Sequence record: NC_012638.1
Origin: Escherichia phage RB14
Strand: one strand, 5' to 3'
Length of the DNA stretch: 64,000 nucleotides
A program made the translations under genes and the position numbers. How positions within the stretch are numbered: the stretch's first letter is position 1; each line of letters opens with the position of its first letter. A model generated the notes under the pieces. It did no database searches and was not told the origin of the DNA. It saw only the letters and a program-made list of their open reading frames with translations. This document shows, piece by piece, positions 8,102 to 19,767 of the stretch.

Positions 8102-9915
8102 TGGTGTTTAACCCTATGCATGATTTCTTTATTTTTACCGAGATTAAATCCGCGTTCGTTCGGATTTCCCAAATAACCACATGTTCTTCTTATTGTATTC
8201 ATCTTTTTAGGATCAGTTTCTCCACAAATAGAACAAACAAATCCGTTTTCAGTAGGAGTCATTTCATGGGTACTTCCACATGTAAAACATTTATCTACTG
8301 GCATATTAACACCAAAATAATCTAAATGTTGTGCGGCATAATCCCATACAGCCTCAAGACCTTTTAAGTTATTTTTCATATCAGGAAGTTCAACATAAGA
8401 AATGTGACCACCTGTCGCAATGAAATGATATGGCGCTTCACGAGAAATCTTTTCAAACGGAGTAACATTTTCTTCTACTGAAACATGGAAACTGTTAGTG
8501 TACCAGCCTTTATCAGTAACATCCTTTACACTTCCATATTTTTCTGTATCAAGTTTACAGAAGCGATAGCAAAGGTTTTCAGCAGGAGTAGAATACAAAC
8601 TAAAAGCAAACCCAGTTCTTTCAGTCCACTGTTTAAGATGAGCATTCATTTTAGTTAAAATTTCTCGTCCAATATCACGACCGACAAGAATATTCAATTC
8701 GTGAATACCAATGTATCCTAAAGACACTGAACTTCTACCGTTTTTAAATAACTCAATTATGTCGTCATCAGGTTTAAGACGAACCCCGAATGCACCTTCT
8801 TGGTAAAGAATAGGAGCAACAGTCGCTTTAACTCCTTTTAAGGAACTAATTCTGCACATCAAAGCTTCAAAACATAAATCCATTCGTTCATTGAACAATT
8901 CGATAAATTTCTGTTCATTGAACTGTGTTCCAATATAAGAATCTAATGCGATACGAGGAAGATTCAGTGTTACAACACCGAGATTATTACGTCCATCAAG
9001 AATTTCATTGCCAGTCGAATCTTTCCATACGCTCAAGAAACTACGACAACCCATTGGAGAAACAGGAATAGATGAGCCGGTGATAGCTTTATTGTTCTTA
9101 GCTGAAATAATATCAGGATACATCCTTTTGCTTGCGCACTCTAGAGCAAGCTGTTTAATATCATAGTTCGGATCGTCTTTATAAAGATTAACACCTTCTT
9201 CAACGAACATAACAAGCTTAGGGAAAATAGGAGTTATCCCATCACGACCAAGACCTTTAATACGATTTTTCAGAATTGCTTTCTGAATCATTCGTTCAGT
9301 CCAGTCAGTTCCCGTACCAAATGTAATTGTTACAAAAGGCGTTTGTCCGTTTGAACTAAAGAGAGTATTTACTTCATATTCATAAGCTTGGAATGCATCG
9401 TATACATCTTTTTCTGTTTTAGATTGAGCATAATTCAACGCATCAGCGATTTGCCATTTTTCTGCATCCTCAATATGTTTTGCATAGGTGCGTTTAACAT
9501 AAGGAGAAAGTACTTTATCTACATTAGCAAAAGTCGTTCCGCCGTATTGATGGGAAGCAACCTGTGCAGTAATTTGTGCCATAATTGCAGTAGCAACACC
9601 GATTGATTTAGGAGTTTCAATCTGTGCATTACCAAGCTTAAATCCGTTCTCAAGCATTCCTTTTAAATCTACTAAACAACAATTAGTAAATGGAAGAGCA
9701 GGGGAATAATCAATATCATGGAAATGAATAATTCCGCTTTCATGCGCTTTCATAATAAAAGACGGGACCATATTTTTGGCAATGTGTTTAGACACAATAC
9801 CAGCCATAAGGTCCCGTTGAGTTGGAAAAACACGAGAATCTTTATTAGCATTCTCGTTTAAAAGGTCTTTATTAGTTTTATGAATCAATCCTTCAATTTC
9901 TTTTTCAATTGTCAT
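8098..9915 (-). CDS. nrdD: Anaerobic ribonucleoside-triphosphate reductase
   Basis: 605 aa, uninterrupted; C-terminal glycyl-radical motif RRTCGYLG; Cys cluster CFTCGS...CSIC. Confidence 0.95.
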   Translation of the reverse strand: MTIEKEIEGLIHKTNKDLLNENANKDSRVFPTQRDLMAGIVSKHIAKNMVPSFIMKAHESGIIHFHDIDYSPALPFTNCCLVDLKGMLENGFKLGNAQIETPKSIGVATAIMAQITAQVASHQYGGTTFANVDKVLSPYVKRTYAKHIEDAEKWQIADALNYAQSKTEKDVYDAFQAYEYEVNTLFSSNGQTPFVTITFGTGTDWTERMIQKAILKNRIKGLGRDGITPIFPKLVMFVEEGVNLYKDDPNYDIKQLALECASKRMYPDIISAKNNKAITGSSIPVSPMGCRSFLSVWKDSTGNEILDGRNNLGVVTLNLPRIALDSYIGTQFNEQKFIELFNERMDLCFEALMCRISSLKGVKATVAPILYQEGAFGVRLKPDDDIIELFKNGRSSVSLGYIGIHELNILVGRDIGREILTKMNAHLKQWTERTGFAFSLYSTPAENLCYRFCKLDTEKYGSVKDVTDKGWYTNSFHVSVEENVTPFEKISREAPYHFIATGGHISYVELPDMKNNLKGLEAVWDYAAQHLDYFGVNMPVDKCFTCGSTHEMTPTENGFVCSICGETDPKKMNTIRRTCGYLGNPNERGFNLGKNKEIMHRVKHQ

Positions 9916-12261: not shown

Positions 12262-12651
12262 TTAATCCAAAATATTATTAGGCATTGGTTGAACACTCAC
12301 AAGTTCTTTAAAGAACTCAGTAGAGTCAGGCAATTTAACCATTTCCGGAGCATGCTTACTGAATTTATGTTTACATTGACGGCATTTATATTCAAGCTCT
12401 GGTTTACGCCAGTTAATCAATTGAACTTGTTCAGTTCCACATTCAGGGCAATTAGGAACGTTTTTAGAAGCCCTTTCACGTCGTTCAACCATAGCCATAA
12501 TAGCATCCCATGCTGGAGGTTTAAAATCTAAATCGTCGCAGCCGTGAATCTTTCCACGCATTTCCATATCATCTTCCTCACCAGCCATAATAATTTTAAT
12601 TAAACTGGAATTACTTGAAGCTGCAATGTCTTCTAATAGACGCTTTTTCAT
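12262..12651 (-). CDS. zinc-ribbon protein
   Basis: 129 aa; CPECG...CRQCKH four-Cys motif. Confidence 0.5.
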
Positions 12652-13577
12652 TTCAATACCTCAATAGCATTACGTAAACCATTTGCTTTTGCATTAAGAG
12701 CTTTTAATAATTTGGTGTGTTCTGCAATTTGGGCTTCAACTTCAATCAAACGAGCATTGAGATATTCGCGTTCTTCACTCAGATTATCAGCCTTTTCTGC
12801 TTTAGGTTCTTTTACAACTTGCTTATATGTATTAGGGTTCTTCAGTTTAATTAGAATGCGTGAACTGTACAGCATTGAACCATTATCTTCGGTTTCGTCA
12901 TACATTTCCACTACGTCCATCATCTCCACCATCGTGCAGAGTTTATAAGACAACGAACGAATAATTTTGTTGTGCTTATTAATTTCTCTAGCTGTCATGG
13001 TGCCGAGATTACGTGAGTAATAATAAGGAACCTGGATATTAATTAATACTGATGAACCACCTGGCTTGTGTGTTACTTCATCAGCAATAACCCAATCCTT
13101 AACATGAACTGTATTTGTACGGTCATCGCCCGCGGTAAATAGTTTACGAGCATGCTTAAAAAGCATATTCACTTGGTCATTGAATTGACAAGCGAATTTA
13201 TCAGCAAATTTAGTTTCGGGAATGGTAGATAACCAATCAGCCAAATGGGTCTTTTTAACATCGTTAACAATAGTAAATTGAACCAAATCGGTTATAGATG
13301 TCGCAGATTTAATGAAGCTCGGCTTCATAAAGTTTTTAATGTTATCACGAGCTACAGTAGAAGATAACATACGAGAACGTTTAAACCATTCAAGCAAATT
13401 GCCTAACGAATGAGAATAAGCGTTTTGAGTATCTTTACAGATATGATTTTCCTGACCAACATATTGAAGGAAATCACGAAGAATATTATTGATTACTGCT
13501 CTGTGCCCGATCTGATAATTACGGTGTTTAGTAATAAGACTATCAAAATAATCAATATAATGTTTACGAGTTTTCAT
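12648..13577 (-). CDS. hypothetical protein with C-terminal coiled coil
   Basis: 309 aa; C-terminal heptad-like segment [42 protein letters not shown]. Confidence 0.55.
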   Translation of the reverse strand: MKTRKHYIDYFDSLITKHRNYQIGHRAVINNILRDFLQYVGQENHICKDTQNAYSHSLGNLLEWFKRSRMLSSTVARDNIKNFMKPSFIKSATSITDLVQFTIVNDVKKTHLADWLSTIPETKFADKFACQFNDQVNMLFKHARKLFTAGDDRTNTVHVKDWVIADEVTHKPGGSSVLINIQVPYYYSRNLGTMTAREINKHNKIIRSLSYKLCTMVEMMDVVEMYDETEDNGSMLYSSRILIKLKNPNTYKQVVKEPKAEKADNLSEEREYLNARLIEVEAQIAEHTKLLKALNAKANGLRNAIEVLK

Positions 13578-13629
13578 GTTCTTCTCACTTGGTTAATGAT
13601 TTATGCTCCGAGCCATCCTTGGCTTTAAA

Positions 13630-14631
13630 TTACTTAATTAACTGTAAAGCTTGTTCCAAACGATCAAGACGATTAACAGATTCTTCCCAAATCTTTTTAG
13701 CCTGCTCATATTCTTTCTGCGCTTTATTAGAAATTTCTAGAACTTCCTTATAAGCTTTTTCTAGTGCAATAACTTCTGGACGAATTTCTACCGGTTCAGG
13801 TGAATCATCAAGATTATCCATTAGTTCCTCAAGGGTAGTTTCTTCTTTAGGAGTATTCACAATTTCATCACATTTTTGTTGATAAATTTCTTTATCAGTA
13901 GGTGAGTACGCGCACTTTACTTCACGAAGACTAATTACAATTTTATATCCTTCCCAACCACCCATATTTTTGAAAGGATATGTATGAATACTTTTTACAG
14001 TTTCCATACAATCCAAAGCCGTCTCTAATTGATGAGTTATAGTGCTAGCAATTGAGAAAAATTTATTAATATTCTTTTGGTTAGCTTCTGGTGTAAAAAA
14101 TTCGTAATTCACAAAAATAGCTACTTTATTTTTATCAAGCTCATATTCTTTTACGATAATCATATCAGAAGCCAAAGGATGAATTTGACGATAATCGCCA
14201 TAACATAATTTAGAAGCTGATTTCAGAATTTGTCCTTTAAAAAGTCTGAAATTACTAATCCAACGACGAGTAAAAATATTCTTAGGGTCTTCTTTGATAT
14301 TAAGATGATAAGAATTAACATCACCGAACCAATTGTATCCTATTACACCTTTAGTTCGTTTAATTTCTTTCCCAAAATTACCAAGAATATCCCGATTAAC
14401 CAAATATGAAAGAAGACGAGACCCTTTAAAGATTATCTTAATATCATCTTTATCTACACGGCTAGAAATTTCACGAACTTCATGAATAAATTTACTGGAA
14501 GAAACAATACTTGCATCAATACTGCTGAGCCATTGATTGATAATAGAAAGAACAGCGTTCTGACTAGACATGGGTTTAACTTTATCATCAATAACGCTAT
14601 TGAATGATTTGATATATTCGTTACGAGTCAT
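13630..14631 (-). CDS. hypothetical protein with C-terminal coiled coil
   Basis: 333 aa from ATG at 14631 (GAGGAG SD, early promoter upstream); track start at 14661 translates promoter DNA. Confidence 0.55.
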   Translation of the reverse strand: MTRNEYIKSFNSVIDDKVKPMSSQNAVLSIINQWLSSIDASIVSSSKFIHEVREISSRVDKDDIKIIFKGSRLLSYLVNRDILGNFGKEIKRTKGVIGYNWFGDVNSYHLNIKEDPKNIFTRRWISNFRLFKGQILKSASKLCYGDYRQIHPLASDMIIVKEYELDKNKVAIFVNYEFFTPEANQKNINKFFSIASTITHQLETALDCMETVKSIHTYPFKNMGGWEGYKIVISLREVKCAYSPTDKEIYQQKCDEIVNTPKEETTLEELMDNLDDSPEPVEIRPEVIALEKAYKEVLEISNKAQKEYEQAKKIWEESVNRLDRLEQALQLIK

Positions 14632-14659
14632 ATTAATCTCCTCAGTAGAAAGTAAAAAC

Positions 14660-14689
14660 ATTATACCACATCCTTGTGGTAAAGTAAAC
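14660..14689 (-). promoter_or_regulatory. Early promoter
   Basis: Minus strand GTTTAC-N18-TATAAT upstream of ORF 13630..14631. Confidence 0.6.
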
Positions 14690-15708
14690 TAGTTCAGTGC
14701 ATTTAATGCATTGTTCAGTTTAGAACGTTGCTTCGTGAGATTTTTGACTTTTTCTTGTGCTTTTTCTAGCATCTTTTCAGCTTCTAACACTTCATTGGTC
14801 GCTTTAACGAGTTCATCATCTACTGCCTTAAGAGACTTCTCAATCGCATCCGCGTGCCATTTTTCAACAGGTTTAAGACTCGGATTTTCAATAGGAAGAA
14901 AATTCACTTTATTAAATTTCCATGCATCTTTATTACCTGAGCTATACATCCAAAATTTAGGATCGTTTGATGAGCAATTAGATAAATTTAAGTTATCTTG
15001 CACTTCCTGCTTTTTCTCTTGCGGGACTTCATCCTTTCTCAAAAAATCGTATTTAAATGAAACGATCATATCAAGTTCATACGTTGTTGTATGTTCCCAA
15101 TTTCGCTCAAAATGAGGTAAAATCTTAGACTGAACAGCAGAAACAACATCCATATACTTAAATGCTTCTGTCAGCTGTGATTTAAGACATTCACAAATTG
15201 AAAGAGAATTTTTAGTACTAGGTTTAAAGCTAATTCGTGCAGTTCTATTATTTTCTTTTAATGGTCTTACTTCCATCTGAAGAGTATAACCATCAAATTT
15301 CAGATTCTTTAAGTTAATATCAGAGCCCTTTAATCGACTAGCAGTAGACAAAATTTGCTTTAATTGTTTACGAAATAGAGCAATAAATCTCCATTCAATA
15401 CGATAATGATTTGGATTAAAAAATCCTGTTGATAAATCAACCTTACTCTGACCAACGCCTTGAACAAATAGAGGATTTTTATAATCAATAGTTTTACAGA
15501 AATCGGTGAGCTGCTCACGAGCAGTCATTTGAGTAATATACCCTGCTTCATTAAAATGACGTAACCATTCACTGCTATTCATATACTTAAAGTGAATATC
15601 ACGATTAACTTTATCAGGGTCTAAATTATTTTGGCACAAAAATGTCATAACATTACGGGTATAGCTGGCATTACGAACCATATCTTCAATTTGAGAACGA
15701 GTTTTCAT
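14689..15708 (-). CDS. hypothetical protein with C-terminal coiled coil
   Basis: 339 aa; C-terminal EAEKMLEKAQEKVKNLTKQRSKLNNALNALN. Confidence 0.55.
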   Translation of the reverse strand: MKTRSQIEDMVRNASYTRNVMTFLCQNNLDPDKVNRDIHFKYMNSSEWLRHFNEAGYITQMTAREQLTDFCKTIDYKNPLFVQGVGQSKVDLSTGFFNPNHYRIEWRFIALFRKQLKQILSTASRLKGSDINLKNLKFDGYTLQMEVRPLKENNRTARISFKPSTKNSLSICECLKSQLTEAFKYMDVVSAVQSKILPHFERNWEHTTTYELDMIVSFKYDFLRKDEVPQEKKQEVQDNLNLSNCSSNDPKFWMYSSGNKDAWKFNKVNFLPIENPSLKPVEKWHADAIEKSLKAVDDELVKATNEVLEAEKMLEKAQEKVKNLTKQRSKLNNALNALN

Positions 15709-15716
15709 GGTGTTCC

Positions 15717-16619
15717 TTAAGATTTAAGTAAATCAACAATTTTAATTAATTTTTCACGCTCAGATTTAGCTTTACTACTCAATCCAGATAGTCTGAAAAT
15801 TTCATCGTCATACTGTTGAATAGAAATATTCAGCTCTTCAATTTGCTTATTAAAATAATCAATTTGCTCAGAATGTTTTTCGTTACTACGAACTGGTACA
15901 GGGTTTGTAGGCAATTTAGTTGAACTGGATTCATCCGGGCGATAAATTAAAATACAACTTGAACCAATAGGGCATTTTGCACCAGATGAATATTCTAATG
16001 TTCCGGCTTCTTTTAAAACTTCAAAAGCTAAACAGAGATGATGCCCCATATTAACATAATCAGTAGAGCGAGCTCTGATGTAATAATCATCTCCACGAGT
16101 ACTAAATTTAAAGCATTTAAGGTCTTCTGTATTATTGGTCTTAAAAATCATTTGTTTATCTAGACCTTTAGCTAATCGAGCGCCTAATGCTAATAATCGT
16201 CGTTGATTTTCCCACAAATCTGCGATCATTTGGTCAAATGATAATTTCGGCATTAGTCGACCATAAAGGTCGTATCCTTTATTATAATTGCGAAGGATTT
16301 CACTCGCATTAATACGAGACAACGCTCCAATTTTATTAAGGGCTTTCATGATGCGATTAGATAAACCCATTCCAGACCCGTTTGTTCGTTGTAAATGTTT
16401 ATCTAATCCAAACCCAATATCAACTTTAAATTTATCTAAAATTTCAGCATGAACATCTCTGTCAATAACATTCAAATCCAAAGTTGGGTTAAATCTATGA
16501 AAAAATTTATCTGGCTCTCCACGACGAAGTACAGTCCATTCATTCAATTTTTTATTAACTAAAGATTTAATTACTGCATTGACATTATTAATTACTACTG
16601 ACATATTTTCCTCACTCAA
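15717..16619 (-). CDS. hypothetical protein with C-terminal coiled coil
   Basis: 300 aa; C-terminal QIEELNISIQQYDDEIFRL...KLIKIVDLLKS. Confidence 0.55.
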   Translation of the reverse strand: MSEENMSVVINNVNAVIKSLVNKKLNEWTVLRRGEPDKFFHRFNPTLDLNVIDRDVHAEILDKFKVDIGFGLDKHLQRTNGSGMGLSNRIMKALNKIGALSRINASEILRNYNKGYDLYGRLMPKLSFDQMIADLWENQRRLLALGARLAKGLDKQMIFKTNNTEDLKCFKFSTRGDDYYIRARSTDYVNMGHHLCLAFEVLKEAGTLEYSSGAKCPIGSSCILIYRPDESSSTKLPTNPVPVRSNEKHSEQIDYFNKQIEELNISIQQYDDEIFRLSGLSSKAKSEREKLIKIVDLLKS

Positions 16620-17020: not shown

Positions 17021-17049
17021 AATAATCTCAATTAAAAGGGCTTAGAACC

Positions 17050-17074
17050 ATTATACCATCCTTGGTATAAAGCG
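17050..17074 (-). promoter_or_regulatory. Middle (MotA-box-like) promoter
   Basis: Minus strand CGCTTTA-N12-TATAAT upstream of ORF 16616..17020. Confidence 0.4.
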
Positions 17075-17075
17075 G

Positions 17076-17603
17076 TTATGCGAGTACCGTCTTTAACCGT
17101 TCTTCAAACTTCCGAAGAGTATTTTGGCGTTCAGCTCTTTGCTTTTTGTAAGTTTCAATACGCTCTGAAATGAGAGTGTATCGTTCATTTACTGATTCTT
17201 TCATAAAATCAGGAATTTCACGAGAAGCTTTAATCTCGTCAAATTTATCAATAACAGCTTGCTCTTCAGCAATTAAGTTATCATACATCAAAATATCTTT
17301 CTTGATGAACTCAATATCTTCTTGAGTTACACGAGATAATTTAGATGCTTTATCCTTTTTGTACTGTTCGTTAGTATCACGAGACCAGTGTAATGTACGA
17401 TTTTTATTCGTATTCTTGTAAATTTCTACAATACCAATCTCATCGATAATAACGATCCAATTCCAACGGGATTTGTAAATTTGTCCTCCATCAACAGTGA
17501 TTTCACCTCCGATTGAGATGTCATTAAAGAACTTGCTTTGTGCTTCAGATTTAAATTTACCATCGTTGTAATTTACCAGGTTGAAAATATCTTTAGCGTT
17601 CAT
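17076..17603 (-). CDS. hypothetical protein
   Basis: 175 aa from ATG at 17603 (MNAKDIF...); track N-terminal 20 aa translate the promoter/leader. Confidence 0.55.
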   Translation of the reverse strand: MNAKDIFNLVNYNDGKFKSEAQSKFFNDISIGGEITVDGGQIYKSRWNWIVIIDEIGIVEIYKNTNKNRTLHWSRDTNEQYKKDKASKLSRVTQEDIEFIKKDILMYDNLIAEEQAVIDKFDEIKASREIPDFMKESVNERYTLISERIETYKKQRAERQNTLRKFEERLKTVLA

Positions 17604-18048: not shown

Positions 18049-18768
18049 TTACGATTCTTCTAAATGTCTTTTCTGAAAAGTTGATACCATACTACGATAC
18101 GGTTCATTTGGATACCCATGTTTTATAGCTTCCTTTGTAAATTTTCTCCATCCATATTTAGTTTCTTTCCAAAGCTCGAATAATTCATCTTCATATTGCC
18201 ATATAGTTAAATGAGAACGCTTTGCAGCTTTAATTCCATTAATATGCTTTTCTTTTACTACAGGATTGCTTAGTTTCTTTTTAATAATATTACTAACTTT
18301 TCTAACAAAAACTGGGTCCTTATATCGTTGAGAAGTTTTTATTGAAGTGTTTAATTTAGCTTCCGGCGTGGATGTAACCTCTTTCATCTTTTTCTTCATA
18401 TGCTGTATATGATTAGGATTTTTCCATAAATTTATAGAATGCTTTTTGCATTTTATCCTAGTTTCATCTGCAACCTTTCCTCCTTCACCCCCGTATGACA
18501 GGTTAACACAGTTTTTTCCATATTTCAATTTACCTGCCATGATATATAATATTTCAGCTTGTACCATTTTATCATAATTATCAAAAACTTCTAAAACCGT
18601 TTTTGATAATATGTGGTCATTTGACACTTTTACACGTTCTATATAATTTCCACTACCAACATACGAATCATTGATGTTATTAGTTATATGTCGACCATAA
18701 TAGTATTTCTTAATACCTGTCTTTAAATTTAATATTTCAGTTTTATAGATAGTAAAATATTTTTTCAT
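18049..18768 (-). CDS. GIY-YIG (Seg-like) homing endonuclease
   Basis: 239 aa; N-terminal FTIYKTEILNLKTGIKKYYYGRHITNNINDSYVGSGNY resembles the Seg-family GIY...YIG core; basic C-terminal half. Confidence 0.6.
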   Translation of the reverse strand: MKKYFTIYKTEILNLKTGIKKYYYGRHITNNINDSYVGSGNYIERVKVSNDHILSKTVLEVFDNYDKMVQAEILYIMAGKLKYGKNCVNLSYGGEGGKVADETRIKCKKHSINLWKNPNHIQHMKKKMKEVTSTPEAKLNTSIKTSQRYKDPVFVRKVSNIIKKKLSNPVVKEKHINGIKAAKRSHLTIWQYEDELFELWKETKYGWRKFTKEAIKHGYPNEPYRSMVSTFQKRHLEES

Positions 18769-19733
18769 TTTAATAATACCGTTTCAGCAATTTCTTCCCA
18801 ATGATTTTTGTCGGTCATAATAAAGTCAGCAAGATAAAGAGCAGTACGCAGTGAAACATTGCGTAAACGATTAACATTGACTTTCATCCATGATAATGCT
18901 TTATAAGTTTCTTCATCAGAAAGACCGCGCTTTTGCATCATGTCGGTTGAAAGAATAACATCTTCAACCCTGACCATAATTTCTTCATTAGTGTGAACAC
19001 CCAAATCCAAATAAACTGAGCGGGACACTAATGCTTGTAAATGTGGAGCAAGTTTAGTACCACGGTCTAATTCGCGGTCAATGTCAACGTTTGTGATAAA
19101 AACAATCGTTCCTTTAAATTCAAACTCACGCTCAATGCCTTTTTCTTCTAAGTAAGAAGATGCAGTGCTCCAGCAGACTTTACGGGTCTCTCCAGTGTCC
19201 AGAGCAGCTTTTAGAAGATTAAGAATGTCCATATCAGAGAAAACATCCACATCATCAATCAAAAGGACAGAATTCTCTTCACGATTATTCCAAAGCTGTT
19301 CATAAAGACCGATACCAGAGATTTTACCATTAATGCTTTTATATTCAATGTATCCAATATCATTTGCTTTATTTAAAGCTTTATCCAAAGAATACGTTTT
19401 ACCAATACCTGCTGCTCCCGAGATAATTAATGAACGAATGTTTCCGTTAATAATACCATTCGTCATCATTCCCATAACATTAAATCTTTTATTAATGCGG
19501 GTTTTCATATCTTCATATGATTCTTTAACTTCTTCAACTTTTACGCCATCATATGAAATGTCTGATTTGTAAACCCAAACACCGCGACGTTTACCGTCAA
19601 TTTCAACAAAAACTTTACCATCTCCTTGTGCATCTACCGGAGCATTATCCGGGAACCATTCGCCTAAGAGCTCAAAAGTTCCAGAGATTTCTTTACCGAA
19701 GTAGATACCCTTATTGATAGTTACAGTTTTCAT
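18765..19733 (-). CDS. P-loop ATPase (AAA-like)
   Basis: 322 aa from ATG at 19733; Walker A GAAGIGKT, Walker B VLLIDDVD; early promoter upstream. Confidence 0.6.
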   Translation of the reverse strand: MKTVTINKGIYFGKEISGTFELLGEWFPDNAPVDAQGDGKVFVEIDGKRRGVWVYKSDISYDGVKVEEVKESYEDMKTRINKRFNVMGMMTNGIINGNIRSLIISGAAGIGKTYSLDKALNKANDIGYIEYKSINGKISGIGLYEQLWNNREENSVLLIDDVDVFSDMDILNLLKAALDTGETRKVCWSTASSYLEEKGIEREFEFKGTIVFITNVDIDRELDRGTKLAPHLQALVSRSVYLDLGVHTNEEIMVRVEDVILSTDMMQKRGLSDEETYKALSWMKVNVNRLRNVSLRTALYLADFIMTDKNHWEEIAETVLLK

Positions 19734-19767
19734 TTTATTCTCCAAATCCGTATCAGTTGATAGTTGT

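What the first reader, a model, noticed from the sequence alone, without database searches (positions are those of the whole stretch)
12648..16619. Four consecutive 300-340-aa proteins each ending in a 35-40-residue coiled coil
ORFs 12648..13577, 13630..14631, 14689..15708 and 15717..16619 have unrelated-looking globular bodies but each ends in a heptad-rich helix (for example NRLDRLEQALQLIK, KNLTKQRSKLNNALNALN, REKLIKIVDLLKS). Two begin MKTR. This shared architecture suggests a family that oligomerises through the tail.
Basis: seen in the sequence. Interest (0 to 1): 0.5.

Follow-up and report, generated by a model that had tools for sequence, protein, structure and literature searches.

The report
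T4 nrdC.3–nrdC.6 coiled-coil-tailed paralogues
Four neighbouring early, dispensable genes of a T4-like phage are very diverged copies of one phage-specific protein that ends in a conserved coiled-coil-like helix; since one copy (NrdC.5) is already known to disarm the bacterial Dsr1 immune protein, the other three are candidate immune-evasion genes.

Summary
The window is a Tequatrovirus (T4-like phage), and the four minus-strand ORFs are nrdC.3, nrdC.4, nrdC.5 and nrdC.6. Each ends in a 49-56-residue heptad-periodic segment, z 3.8-6.3 against shuffles. AlphaFold2, run for nrdC.4 and nrdC.6 only, models it as a helix.

The bodies are not unrelated. Profile comparisons, bridging homologues from other T4-like genera and a Foldseek match show one very diverged family. 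It has an N-terminal helical domain, an alpha/beta domain, a linker and a tail ending KLxxA[LI]xxLK. Copy number is 1 to 4, always next to nrdC.2, and the family looks confined to T4-like phages.

The tail is the best-conserved part at protein level, but not at synonymous sites.

Published work shows T4 nrdC.5 counteracts the Dsr1 defence protein and that all four genes are non-essential. Neighbouring genes 49.2 and nrdC.1 are also anti-defence genes. My best reading is a tandem array of counter-defence proteins with diversified bodies and a shared oligomerisation or docking tail.

Oligomerisation, and any function for nrdC.3, nrdC.4 and nrdC.6, are inferred, not shown.

The parts
12648..13577 (-). 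nrdC.3-like gene (309 aa), family member; same PHROG (1435) as nrdC.4 and assigned to the same Pfam family, PF26897
   Evidence: ORF. 96% amino-acid identity to RB3 nrdC.3 but only 60% to T4 nrdC.3. phrog_1435 at E 1e-115. hhalign against the nrdC.4 family gives 98.7%.
12651..12797 (-). nrdC.3 C-terminal heptad tail (last 49 aa, EKADNLSEEREYL...[11 protein letters not shown])
   Evidence: One heptad register over 7 heptads, z 5.2 against shuffles. No structure model was made for this protein.
13630..14631 (-). nrdC.4-like gene (333 aa), family member
   Evidence: 90% identity to T4 nrdC.4. phrog_1435 at E 5e-166. AF2 model pLDDT 82.6: helical domain 1-84, alpha/beta domain 88-235, linker, helix 285-332.
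13633..13779 (-). nrdC.4 C-terminal helix (last 49 aa, PEVIALEKAY...NRLDRLEQALQLIK)
   Evidence: AF2 helix 285-332. Heptad z 3.8. Nearly invariant across homologues that are 36-53% identical overall. Tail dN/dS about 0-0.08.
14660..14688 (-). sigma-70 / T4-early-type promoter-like site (GTTTACT...TGGTATAAT) with an embedded hairpin, just upstream of nrdC.4
   Evidence: 10 of 12 consensus match with an extended -10; sequence read. Consensus match only; function not shown.
14689..15708 (-). nrdC.5-like gene (339 aa), Pfam DUF7235; orthologue of the T4 gene shown to counteract Dsr1
   Evidence: PF23882 at 411 bits against a cut-off of 30. 91% identity to T4 nrdC.5. The anti-Dsr1 function of T4 nrdC.5 is reported in PMC9391042.
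14692..14859 (-). nrdC.5 C-terminal heptad tail (last 56 aa, WHADAIEKSL...KQRSKLNNALNALN)
   Evidence: One register over 8 heptads, z 6.3. It has the highest C-terminal heptad score of 100 ORFs in the window. No structure model was made for this protein.
15717..16604 (-). nrdC.6-like gene (295 aa from ATG 16604; the ORF is open back to TTG 16619), the most diverged family member
   Evidence: phrog_2257 at E 7e-153. Homologues carry PF26899. The AF2 model (pLDDT 77.5) has the same order of secondary-structure elements as nrdC.4. Linked to the family through Kanagawavirus homologues at 83.6% and by Foldseek at E 5e-5.
15720..15881 (-). nrdC.6 C-terminal tail: two helices (242-271 and 277-294) split at SGLSS
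   Evidence: AF2 model. The first helix is heptad-periodic, z 4.7; the second is too short to test. The tail is the best-conserved part of the family.
17076..17603 (-). nrdC.8 (175 aa): a neighbour that also ends in a heptad-rich helix; not demonstrably related
   Evidence: C-terminal heptad score 0.47, third of 100 ORFs, z 4.5. hhalign against all family profiles gives at most 1.1%.

Best explanation
The four ORFs are the T4 genes nrdC.3, nrdC.4, nrdC.5 and nrdC.6. They are early-region, dispensable, tandem paralogues of one protein family that appears restricted to T4-like phages (Straboviridae and the related Marfavirus).

Each protein has four parts. In the two members modelled, these are an N-terminal helical domain, an alpha/beta domain, a proline- and charge-rich linker that gains and loses residues, and a C-terminal amphipathic helix. 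In all four the sequence shows the linker and a heptad tail of about 50 residues ending in the signature KLxxA[LI]xxLK.

The ancestral state is probably one copy immediately upstream of nrdC.2. Tandem duplication then produced three copies in Mosigvirus, Gaprivervirus and Dhakavirus, and four in Tequatrovirus.

The most likely function is counter-defence. NrdC.5 neutralises the SIR2-domain immune protein Dsr1 (shown by others), and I infer that the paralogues do the same kind of job against other host immune proteins or alleles. In this model the fast-diverging bodies supply target specificity. The strongly conserved tail either assembles the protein into a coiled-coil oligomer, giving avidity for oligomeric immune complexes, or docks it on a common partner.

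Shown here: gene identity, paralogy, the heptad tails (modelled as helices in nrdC.4 and nrdC.6), protein-level conservation of the tail, synteny and copy-number variation. Taken from the literature: the anti-Dsr1 activity of nrdC.5, non-essentiality, and anti-defence neighbours. Inferred: oligomerisation, direct binding, and any function for nrdC.3, nrdC.4 and nrdC.6.
For: Identity: 97% nucleotide identity to RB3 and KarlGJung, with the RB3 and T4 annotations naming nrdC.3-nrdC.6.

Paralogy:
- BLASTP nrdC.3 against nrdC.4 gives E 8e-7, and both hit phrog_1435.
- Enriched hhalign gives nrdC.3-nrdC.4 98.7% and nrdC.4-nrdC.5 89.8%, the latter also with tails removed. nrdC.4-Marfavirus gives 95%, Marfavirus-Kanagawavirus 97.3%, and Kanagawavirus-nrdC.6 83.6%. 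PM2-Kanagawavirus gives 98.5%.
- The Klebsiella-phage protein P0234 was found by the nrdC.3/nrdC.4 profile among 1.84 billion representatives at E 4e-5, and it carries an nrdC.5-type tail.
- Foldseek with the nrdC.4 model finds only 280-374-aa proteins of T4-like phages among full-length hits, including an nrdC.3 homologue at E 5e-8 and JS10 NrdC.6 at E 5e-5.
- The nrdC.4 and nrdC.6 AF2 models have the same order of secondary-structure elements.

Tail:
- Heptad z-scores are 3.8-6.3, and the register relative to the C-terminus is the same in all four.
- The C-terminal signature picks out only family members in the window and in 8 loci, including PM2, which was not used to define it.
- Tail amino-acid identity exceeds body identity in every comparison, while identical residues are no more often encoded by the same codon. 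Tail dN/dS is about 0-0.1 for nrdC.4 and nrdC.6, against 0.1-0.3 for the bodies.

Function and context:
- T4 nrdC.5 expressed in trans restores plating on cells carrying dsr1 (PMC9391042).
- nrdC.3-nrdC.6 are all non-essential in a T4 transposon screen (bioRxiv 2025.11.20.689424 supplement).
- gp49.2 inhibits OLD (PMC13096335) and nrdC.1 inhibits Septu, both a few genes away.
- An early-type promoter lies upstream of nrdC.4.
- Copy number varies from 1 to 4 at a fixed position. Natural deletion and fusion variants exist (P0056; 74%-coverage genomes).
Against: No experiment or multimer prediction shows oligomerisation.

The nrdC.6 tail is modelled as two helices that may fold back on each other rather than pair between chains.

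Only one of the four has a demonstrated phenotype. The paper that identified nrdC.5 does not report tests of the other three.

dN/dS is below 1 throughout, so there is no gene-wide signal of an arms race.

The link from nrdC.6 to the rest rests on intermediates with 84-97% hhalign probability built from very small alignments of 2-10 sequences, plus one Foldseek hit. Direct nrdC.6 profile comparisons with nrdC.3, nrdC.4 and nrdC.5 are not significant.

Tail-only profile comparisons between subfamilies are weak, with P 0.003-0.06.
Confidence: 0.6

Rival explanations
1. Decoy by structural mimicry. The alpha/beta domain derives from, or mimics, a tail terminator / tail completion (gpU-like) fold. 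Made early and held in oligomers by the tail, the proteins would occupy immune sensors that recognise late virion proteins (as DSR2 recognises a tail tube) before the real trigger appears. This is a specific sub-mechanism of the counter-defence reading.
Confidence: 0.12
2. The proteins are not immune antagonists in general. They would be early host-takeover or nucleic-acid-binding factors that dimerise through the tail, like bZIP or SMC-type coiled-coil proteins, and the nrdC.5-Dsr1 effect would be indirect, for example by changing NAD metabolism or the timing of infection.
For: nrdC.3 residues 30-86 give a weak match to the N-terminal core-binding region of XerD/XerC recombinases (E 0.0013, 18 bits, far below the cut-off). 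The gene position and an early-type promoter upstream of nrdC.4 fit many T4 host-takeover genes. Conserved surface positions in the tail suggest one conserved partner rather than diverse immune targets.
Against: No Pfam or NCBIfam family reaches its threshold for nrdC.3, nrdC.4 or nrdC.6, and no weak match points to a DNA-binding domain in more than a single member. All four genes are dispensable in laboratory hosts. The family is tiny and plastic in copy number, which is typical of accessory host-range genes. nrdC.5 alone, expressed from a plasmid, is sufficient against Dsr1.
Confidence: 0.15
3. The shared tails are convergent, or were spread by recombination onto unrelated bodies. On this view the four genes are not one family, and the tail is a mobile module.
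For: P0234 combines an nrdC.4-like body with an nrdC.5-like tail, so tails and bodies may have been exchanged at least once. The current databases treat the genes as three families: PF26897, PF23882 and PF26899, and PHROGs 1435, 2351 and 2257.
Against: Comparisons with the tails removed still link nrdC.3, nrdC.4, nrdC.5 and the Marfavirus protein at 90-99%. A motif of the form LSxxxARDxLxxF recurs at the same relative position in all four bodies (read from the sequences and the alignments). The secondary-structure order and the Foldseek hits agree. Synonymous divergence in the tails equals that of the bodies, so there has been no recent transfer.
Confidence: 0.08

Closest known systems
T4 NrdC.5 (Pfam DUF7235, PF23882), the anti-Dsr1 factor of Srikant, Guegler and Laub, eLife 2022 (PMC9391042)
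   Same: The third ORF is its orthologue: 91% identity and 411 bits to PF23882. The other three share its architecture, its locus and, by remote homology, its ancestry.
   Different: nrdC.3, nrdC.4 and nrdC.6 do not match PF23882 directly and have no known phenotype. The paper does not describe the paralogy or the tail.
DSAD1 of phage SPbeta, the inhibitor of DSR2
   Same: A phage protein that disarms a SIR2-domain NADase defence protein by binding it. This is the kind of mechanism proposed here for NrdC.5 against Dsr1.
   Different: I tested no sequence or fold relation. From my own recollection, not checked here, DSAD1 is a small single-domain protein without a coiled-coil tail. Its target is DSR2, not Dsr1.
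Tail terminator / tail completion proteins (lambda gpU, SPP1 gp17-like, T5 p142)
   Different: Those are late proteins of about 110-280 residues encoded in tail modules, several named in their PDB entries as parts of the virion neck. The proteins here are 300-340 residues, lie in the early region, are non-essential, and carry extra helical and coiled-coil parts. Identity is only 3-15% across those hits.
Other multi-copy accessory sets in T-even phages, such as the internal proteins IPI/IPII/IPIII and the dmd-tifA-adfA anti-toxin island
   Same: Clusters of dispensable genes that decide which hosts can be infected and are easily lost or amplified (PMC9391042).
   Different: Here the clustered genes are paralogues of each other and share a conserved C-terminal module.

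Membership tests
Pfam DUF7235 (PF23882, NrdC.5 family) | Match to the family HMM above the gathering score (30 bits) | tested here: met
   nrdC.5-like ORF: 411.5 bits, E 3e-123, full length. The other three ORFs give no hit to this HMM, so they are not members by this criterion.
PF26897 / PHROG 1435 (NrdC.3-NrdC.4 family) | Significant full-length match to the family profile | tested here: met
   phrog_1435 at E 1e-115 (nrdC.3) and 5e-166 (nrdC.4). Homologues of nrdC.4, and the nrdC.3-derived part of P0056, carry a precomputed PF26897 assignment. PF26897 itself is not in the local Pfam copy.
PF26899 / PHROG 2257 (NrdC.6 family) | Significant full-length match to the family profile | tested here: met
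   phrog_2257 at E 7e-153. All 105 homologues carry a precomputed PF26899 assignment.
One superfamily uniting nrdC.3-nrdC.6 (proposed here) | Homology of the bodies, not only of the tails | tested here: met
   With tails removed, hhalign gives nrdC.3-nrdC.4 98.6%, nrdC.4-nrdC.5 89.8% and nrdC.4-Marfavirus 94.9%. For nrdC.6 the support is weaker. Kanagawavirus-nrdC.6 reaches 83.6% over 162 columns with the tail but only 24% without it. There is also Foldseek E 5e-5 to JS10 NrdC.6 and the matching secondary-structure order.
Canonical alpha-helical coiled coil | Heptad (a/d hydrophobic) periodicity over at least 4 heptads, beyond what composition gives | tested here: met
   A single register runs over 49-56 residues with z 3.8-6.3 against 5000 shuffles. 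The 3.5-residue hydrophobicity power is exceeded in at most 2.2% of shuffles. In nrdC.6 only the first 29 residues are clearly periodic.
Canonical alpha-helical coiled coil | The segment is helical and not packed into the globular body | tested here: met
   AF2 models helix 285-332 in nrdC.4 (pLDDT 76-86) and helices 242-271 and 277-294 in nrdC.6.
Canonical alpha-helical coiled coil | Two or more helices actually associate (homo- or hetero-oligomer) | not testable with these tools
   Only single-chain prediction was available. This needs AlphaFold-Multimer or AF3, SEC-MALS or cross-linking.
Phage anti-defence protein (inhibitor of Dsr1) | Expression of the gene restores phage growth on cells carrying the defence system | not testable with these tools
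   Reported for T4 nrdC.5 (PMC9391042). The window's orthologue is 91% identical. No data exist for nrdC.3, nrdC.4 or nrdC.6.
Tail terminator / tail completion proteins (gpU-like) | gpU-like alpha/beta fold | tested here: inconclusive
Tail terminator / tail completion proteins (gpU-like) | Encoded in the late tail-gene module and needed to make virions | tested here: not met
   The genes lie between gene 49/nrdC and mobD in the early region, with an early-type promoter upstream of nrdC.4. All four are non-essential.

The most novel reading that the evidence does not exclude
The family is an early-expressed, coiled-coil-oligomerised mimic of a virion tail-terminator/tube-like fold. Each paralogue would act as a decoy that pre-occupies a different host immune sensor built to detect late structural proteins. 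The invariant KLxxA[LI]xxLK tail would let the paralogues co-assemble into one multi-specific 'decoy hub'.
Probability: 0.1. Interest if true: 0.8.

Novelty: new member of a known kind. Interest (0 to 1): 0.5.

Why it matters
One member, NrdC.5, is a published inhibitor of the Dsr1 immune protein whose mechanism is unknown. Showing that nrdC.3, nrdC.4 and nrdC.6 are its diverged paralogues does three things.

First, it nominates three more candidate immune antagonists in the best-studied phage.

Second, it identifies a conserved C-terminal module that can be deleted or swapped to dissect the mechanism.

Third, it gives an example of tandem duplication and divergence building a counter-defence repertoire, from 1 to 4 copies across T4-like genera.

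It also shows that three separate Pfam and PHROG families could be merged into one clan.

Tried and rejected
- Pairwise BLASTP among the four proteins detects only nrdC.3-nrdC.4, so profiles and intermediates were needed.
- Tail-only profile comparisons were too weak to prove that the tails are homologous (P 0.003-0.06, only slightly better than reversed-sequence controls).
- nrdC.8 has a similar heptad tail, but no relation to the family could be shown.
- The 256-261-aa proteins upstream of the single-copy members in Marfa, IME523, PEi20 and PM2 are not detectably related.
- Pfam, NCBIfam and PDB sequence searches gave nothing above threshold for nrdC.3, nrdC.4 or nrdC.6.
- A weak XerD N-terminal match of nrdC.3 (18 bits) was not pursued.
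- The promoter scan over the region gave no more sites than chance (27 found, 28 expected). Only the site upstream of nrdC.4 looks like a real T4 early promoter.
- DNA-level conservation of the tails, from recombination or an embedded signal, was rejected because synonymous sites are as diverged as in the bodies.
- Literature searches found no follow-up on the mechanism of NrdC.5.

Full report
**What the region is.** The window is a Tequatrovirus (T4-like) genome. The stretch 12648-16619 is 97% identical at the nucleotide level to phages KarlGJung and RB3, and it matches 653 phage records, 461 of them over at least 80% of its length. All four ORFs lie on the minus strand. The RB3 and T4 annotations name the genes at these positions nrdC.3, nrdC.4, nrdC.5 and nrdC.6. 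They sit between nrdC/nrdC.1/nrdC.2 and nrdC.7/nrdC.8.

Amino-acid identity to the T4 proteins is 60%, 90%, 91% and 97% respectively. nrdC.3 has two deeply diverged alleles within the genus, and the window carries the RB3 type.

The start of nrdC.4 is ATG 14631. It has a GAGGAG ribosome-binding site, and the upstream ATG at 14661 lies inside the -10 box of a T4-early-type promoter, GTTTACT...TGGTATAAT. The likely start of nrdC.6 is ATG 16604, not TTG 16619.

**Checking the observation.** No published coiled-coil predictor was available, so I wrote a COILS-like heptad score with 28-residue windows and seven registers.
- Controls scored 0.56 (GCN4 zipper), 0.47 (Lpp) and 0.19 (T4 lysozyme).
- The four tail regions scored 0.48, 0.46, 0.54 and 0.43, and the bodies at most 0.32.
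- Among 100 non-overlapping gene-like ORFs of the window, the top four C-terminal scores are nrdC.5, nrdC.3, nrdC.8 and nrdC.4. nrdC.6 reaches 0.43 in the first part of its tail. This clustering in adjacent genes is far from what chance would give.
- Against 5000 shuffles that keep composition, the single-register scores give z = 5.2, 3.8, 6.3 and 4.6. The 3.5-residue hydrophobicity periodicity is matched in at most 2.2% of shuffles.

nrdC.3, nrdC.4 and nrdC.5 keep one register for 49-56 residues. nrdC.6 has a 29-residue periodic helix, a SGLSS break and a further helix of about 18 residues. AlphaFold2 with family alignments models nrdC.4 residues 285-332 as one helix (mean pLDDT 82.6) and nrdC.6 residues 242-271 and 277-294 as two helices (mean pLDDT 77.5).

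**Are the bodies unrelated?** No. BLASTP sees only nrdC.3-nrdC.4 (24% over 225 residues, E 8e-7), and both hit PHROG 1435. Current databases split the four into three families: PF26897, PF23882 (DUF7235) and PF26899, and PHROGs 1435, 2351 and 2257.

I collected homologues with three protein searches, one exhaustive profile search and syntenic loci from other genera. Profile-profile comparison then gave the following network:

| Pair | hhalign probability | Note |
|---|---|---|
| nrdC.3 - nrdC.4 | 98.7% | 98.6% with tails removed |
| nrdC.4 - nrdC.5 | 89.8% | E 1.7e-6; unchanged with tails removed |
| nrdC.4 - Marfavirus protein (P0234) | 95% | 94.9% with tails removed |
| Marfavirus - Kanagawavirus proteins | 97.3% | 53% with tails removed |
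| Kanagawavirus - nrdC.6 | 83.6% | 24% with tails removed |
| Kanagawavirus - Pectobacterium phage PM2 | 98.5% | tail-less comparison not run |

Further support:
- P0234 was found by the nrdC.3/nrdC.4 profile at E 4e-5 in a library of 1.84 billion representatives. It has an nrdC.4-like body and an nrdC.5-like tail.
- Foldseek of the nrdC.4 model against BFVD gave 17 hits at E <= 1e-3. The named ones are proteins of T4-like phages, and the full-length ones are 280-374 aa (Yersinia, Pectobacterium, Enterobacter, Acinetobacter, Erwinia and Serratia phages). They include an nrdC.3 homologue at E 5e-8 and JS10 'nrdC.6' at E 5e-5.
- The two AF2 models have the same order of helices and strands.
- A motif of the form LSxxxARDxLxxF sits at the same relative position in all four proteins. 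The N-terminus M(K)TRxx[YI]I is shared by nrdC.3, nrdC.4, nrdC.5 and the Marfavirus protein (sequences).

I conclude that the four are one very diverged family. The link to nrdC.6 is the weakest, because direct profile comparisons with the other three are not significant.

**The tail.** In every subfamily the tail is the best-conserved segment.
- In nrdC.4, homologues that are 36-53% identical overall keep PEVIALEKAY...AKKxWEESxNRLDxLEQALELLK almost unchanged.
- Tail identity exceeds body identity in all ten inter-genus comparisons. Identical residues in the tail are no more often encoded by the same codon than in the body, so the constraint acts on the protein, not on the DNA, and is not recent recombination.
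- Within Tequatrovirus, tail dN/dS is about 0-0.08 for nrdC.4 and nrdC.6, against 0.1-0.3 for the bodies. Housekeeping neighbours (gp49, nrdC, nrdC.8, nrdC.10, nrdC.11) sit at 0-0.09.
- Surface heptad positions are almost as conserved as core positions, for example 0.81 against 0.90 in nrdC.4 with the body at 0.58.
- All four tails end in the same register, with the last Leu at position d and the following residue (Lys in three, Asn in nrdC.5) at e. They share the C-terminal signature L-x-x-[AIV]-[LIVM]-x-x-[LI]-[KRN]. This pattern finds exactly the four proteins among 131 six-frame ORFs of the window. In independent loci it finds only family members, including PM2, which was not used to define it.
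- Tail-only profile comparisons are too weak on their own to prove that the tails are homologous.

**Distribution.** The nrdC.3/nrdC.4 profile finds only 10 representatives at E <= 1e-3 among 1.84 billion clusters. The nrdC.5 family is almost confined to Tequatrovirus, with relatives at 20-28% identity in Gaprivervirus and Dhakavirus phages.

Copy number at the fixed position just upstream of nrdC.2:

| Genus | Copies |
|---|---|
| Marfavirus, Kanagawavirus, Mosugukvirus | 1 |
| Mosigvirus, Gaprivervirus, Dhakavirus | 3 |
| Tequatrovirus | 4 |

Some Tequatrovirus genomes have lost one gene (74% coverage). A database protein, P0056, is an in-frame nrdC.5::nrdC.3 fusion.

**Function.** Srikant, Guegler and Laub (eLife 2022, PMC9391042) showed two things. 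A T4 deletion mutant cannot plate on ECOR17, or on MG1655 carrying dsr1 from ECOR17. [quoted passage not shown] I found no later work on the mechanism.

A T4 transposon screen lists nrdC.3-nrdC.6 as non-essential. Two nearby genes are also counter-defence genes: 49.2 against OLD (PMC13096335) and nrdC.1 against Septu.

The most likely reading is therefore a tandem array of counter-defence paralogues. The diverged bodies would give specificity, and the tail would be a shared oligomerisation or docking module. Oligomerisation is inferred only.

**Comparison with what is known.** The genes themselves are long-known T4 ORFs, and one has a published phenotype. As far as the searchable literature shows, three points are new: the paralogy of all four, the conserved C-terminal signature, and the 1-to-4 copy expansion. 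I rate this as new members of a known kind (NrdC.5-like counter-defence proteins), of moderate interest.

Noticed in passing
window 13578-13629, 14632-14688, 17021-17075 (minus strand): Three intergenic gaps, upstream of nrdC.3, nrdC.4 and nrdC.7, carry a short hairpin with the same core: GCCAAGGATGGC, TACCACAAGGATGTGGTA and ATACCAAGGATGGTAT. In two of them it is fused to TATAAT. A 32-nt match to the nrdC.4 copy also turned up in an unrelated short phage record (H55).
   Followed up: partly
L014 (T4 NC_000866) 9067-9894, compared with window 15717-16604: In the T4 reference record, nrdC.6 is frameshifted inside the tail (…NKQIEEL then IFLFNNMMMKFSDYLD*). The intact tail continues in the +1 frame. 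The window, RB3 and the T4 stock used for HIDEN-SEQ (891-nt gene) are intact, so the reference probably carries a sequencing error or a strain mutation.
   Followed up: partly
window 17076-17603 (-): nrdC.8 (175 aa) also ends in a heptad-rich helix (…ETYKKQRAERQNTLRKFEERLKTVLA). It has the third highest C-terminal score in the window but no detectable homology to the family.
   Followed up: yes
window 12262-13577 (-), compared with L014 and L007: nrdC.2 and nrdC.3 show deep allelic dimorphism within Tequatrovirus. The window is 96% identical to RB3 nrdC.3 but only 60% to T4 nrdC.3, with dS about 1, while flanking genes differ by dS 0.02-0.2. This indicates mosaic exchange of this segment.
   Followed up: partly
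protein P0056; genomes H44 and H45: An in-frame nrdC.5::nrdC.3 fusion protein exists in public data, joined at …WKFNKVN|MLFKHARKLF…. Some Tequatrovirus genomes lack about 1 kb of the array. These look like natural deletions between paralogues.
   Followed up: no
GenBank records under the match: Many records annotate nrdC.3-nrdC.6 as 'thioredoxin'. This appears to be an error spread from the gene name nrdC.x. None of the four has any thioredoxin match.
   Followed up: yes
window 12648-13577 (-), residues 30-86: The nrdC.3 N-terminal helical region gives a weak match to the N-terminal core-binding domain of XerD/XerC tyrosine recombinases (E 0.0013, 18 bits, far below the cut-off).
   Followed up: no
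window 18049-18768 (-): A 239-aa ORF lies between nrdC.9 and nrdC.10, overlapping the start of the 18765-19745 ORF. RB3 annotates an intron-like site-specific DNA endonuclease, split into two ORFs, at the same place.
   Followed up: no
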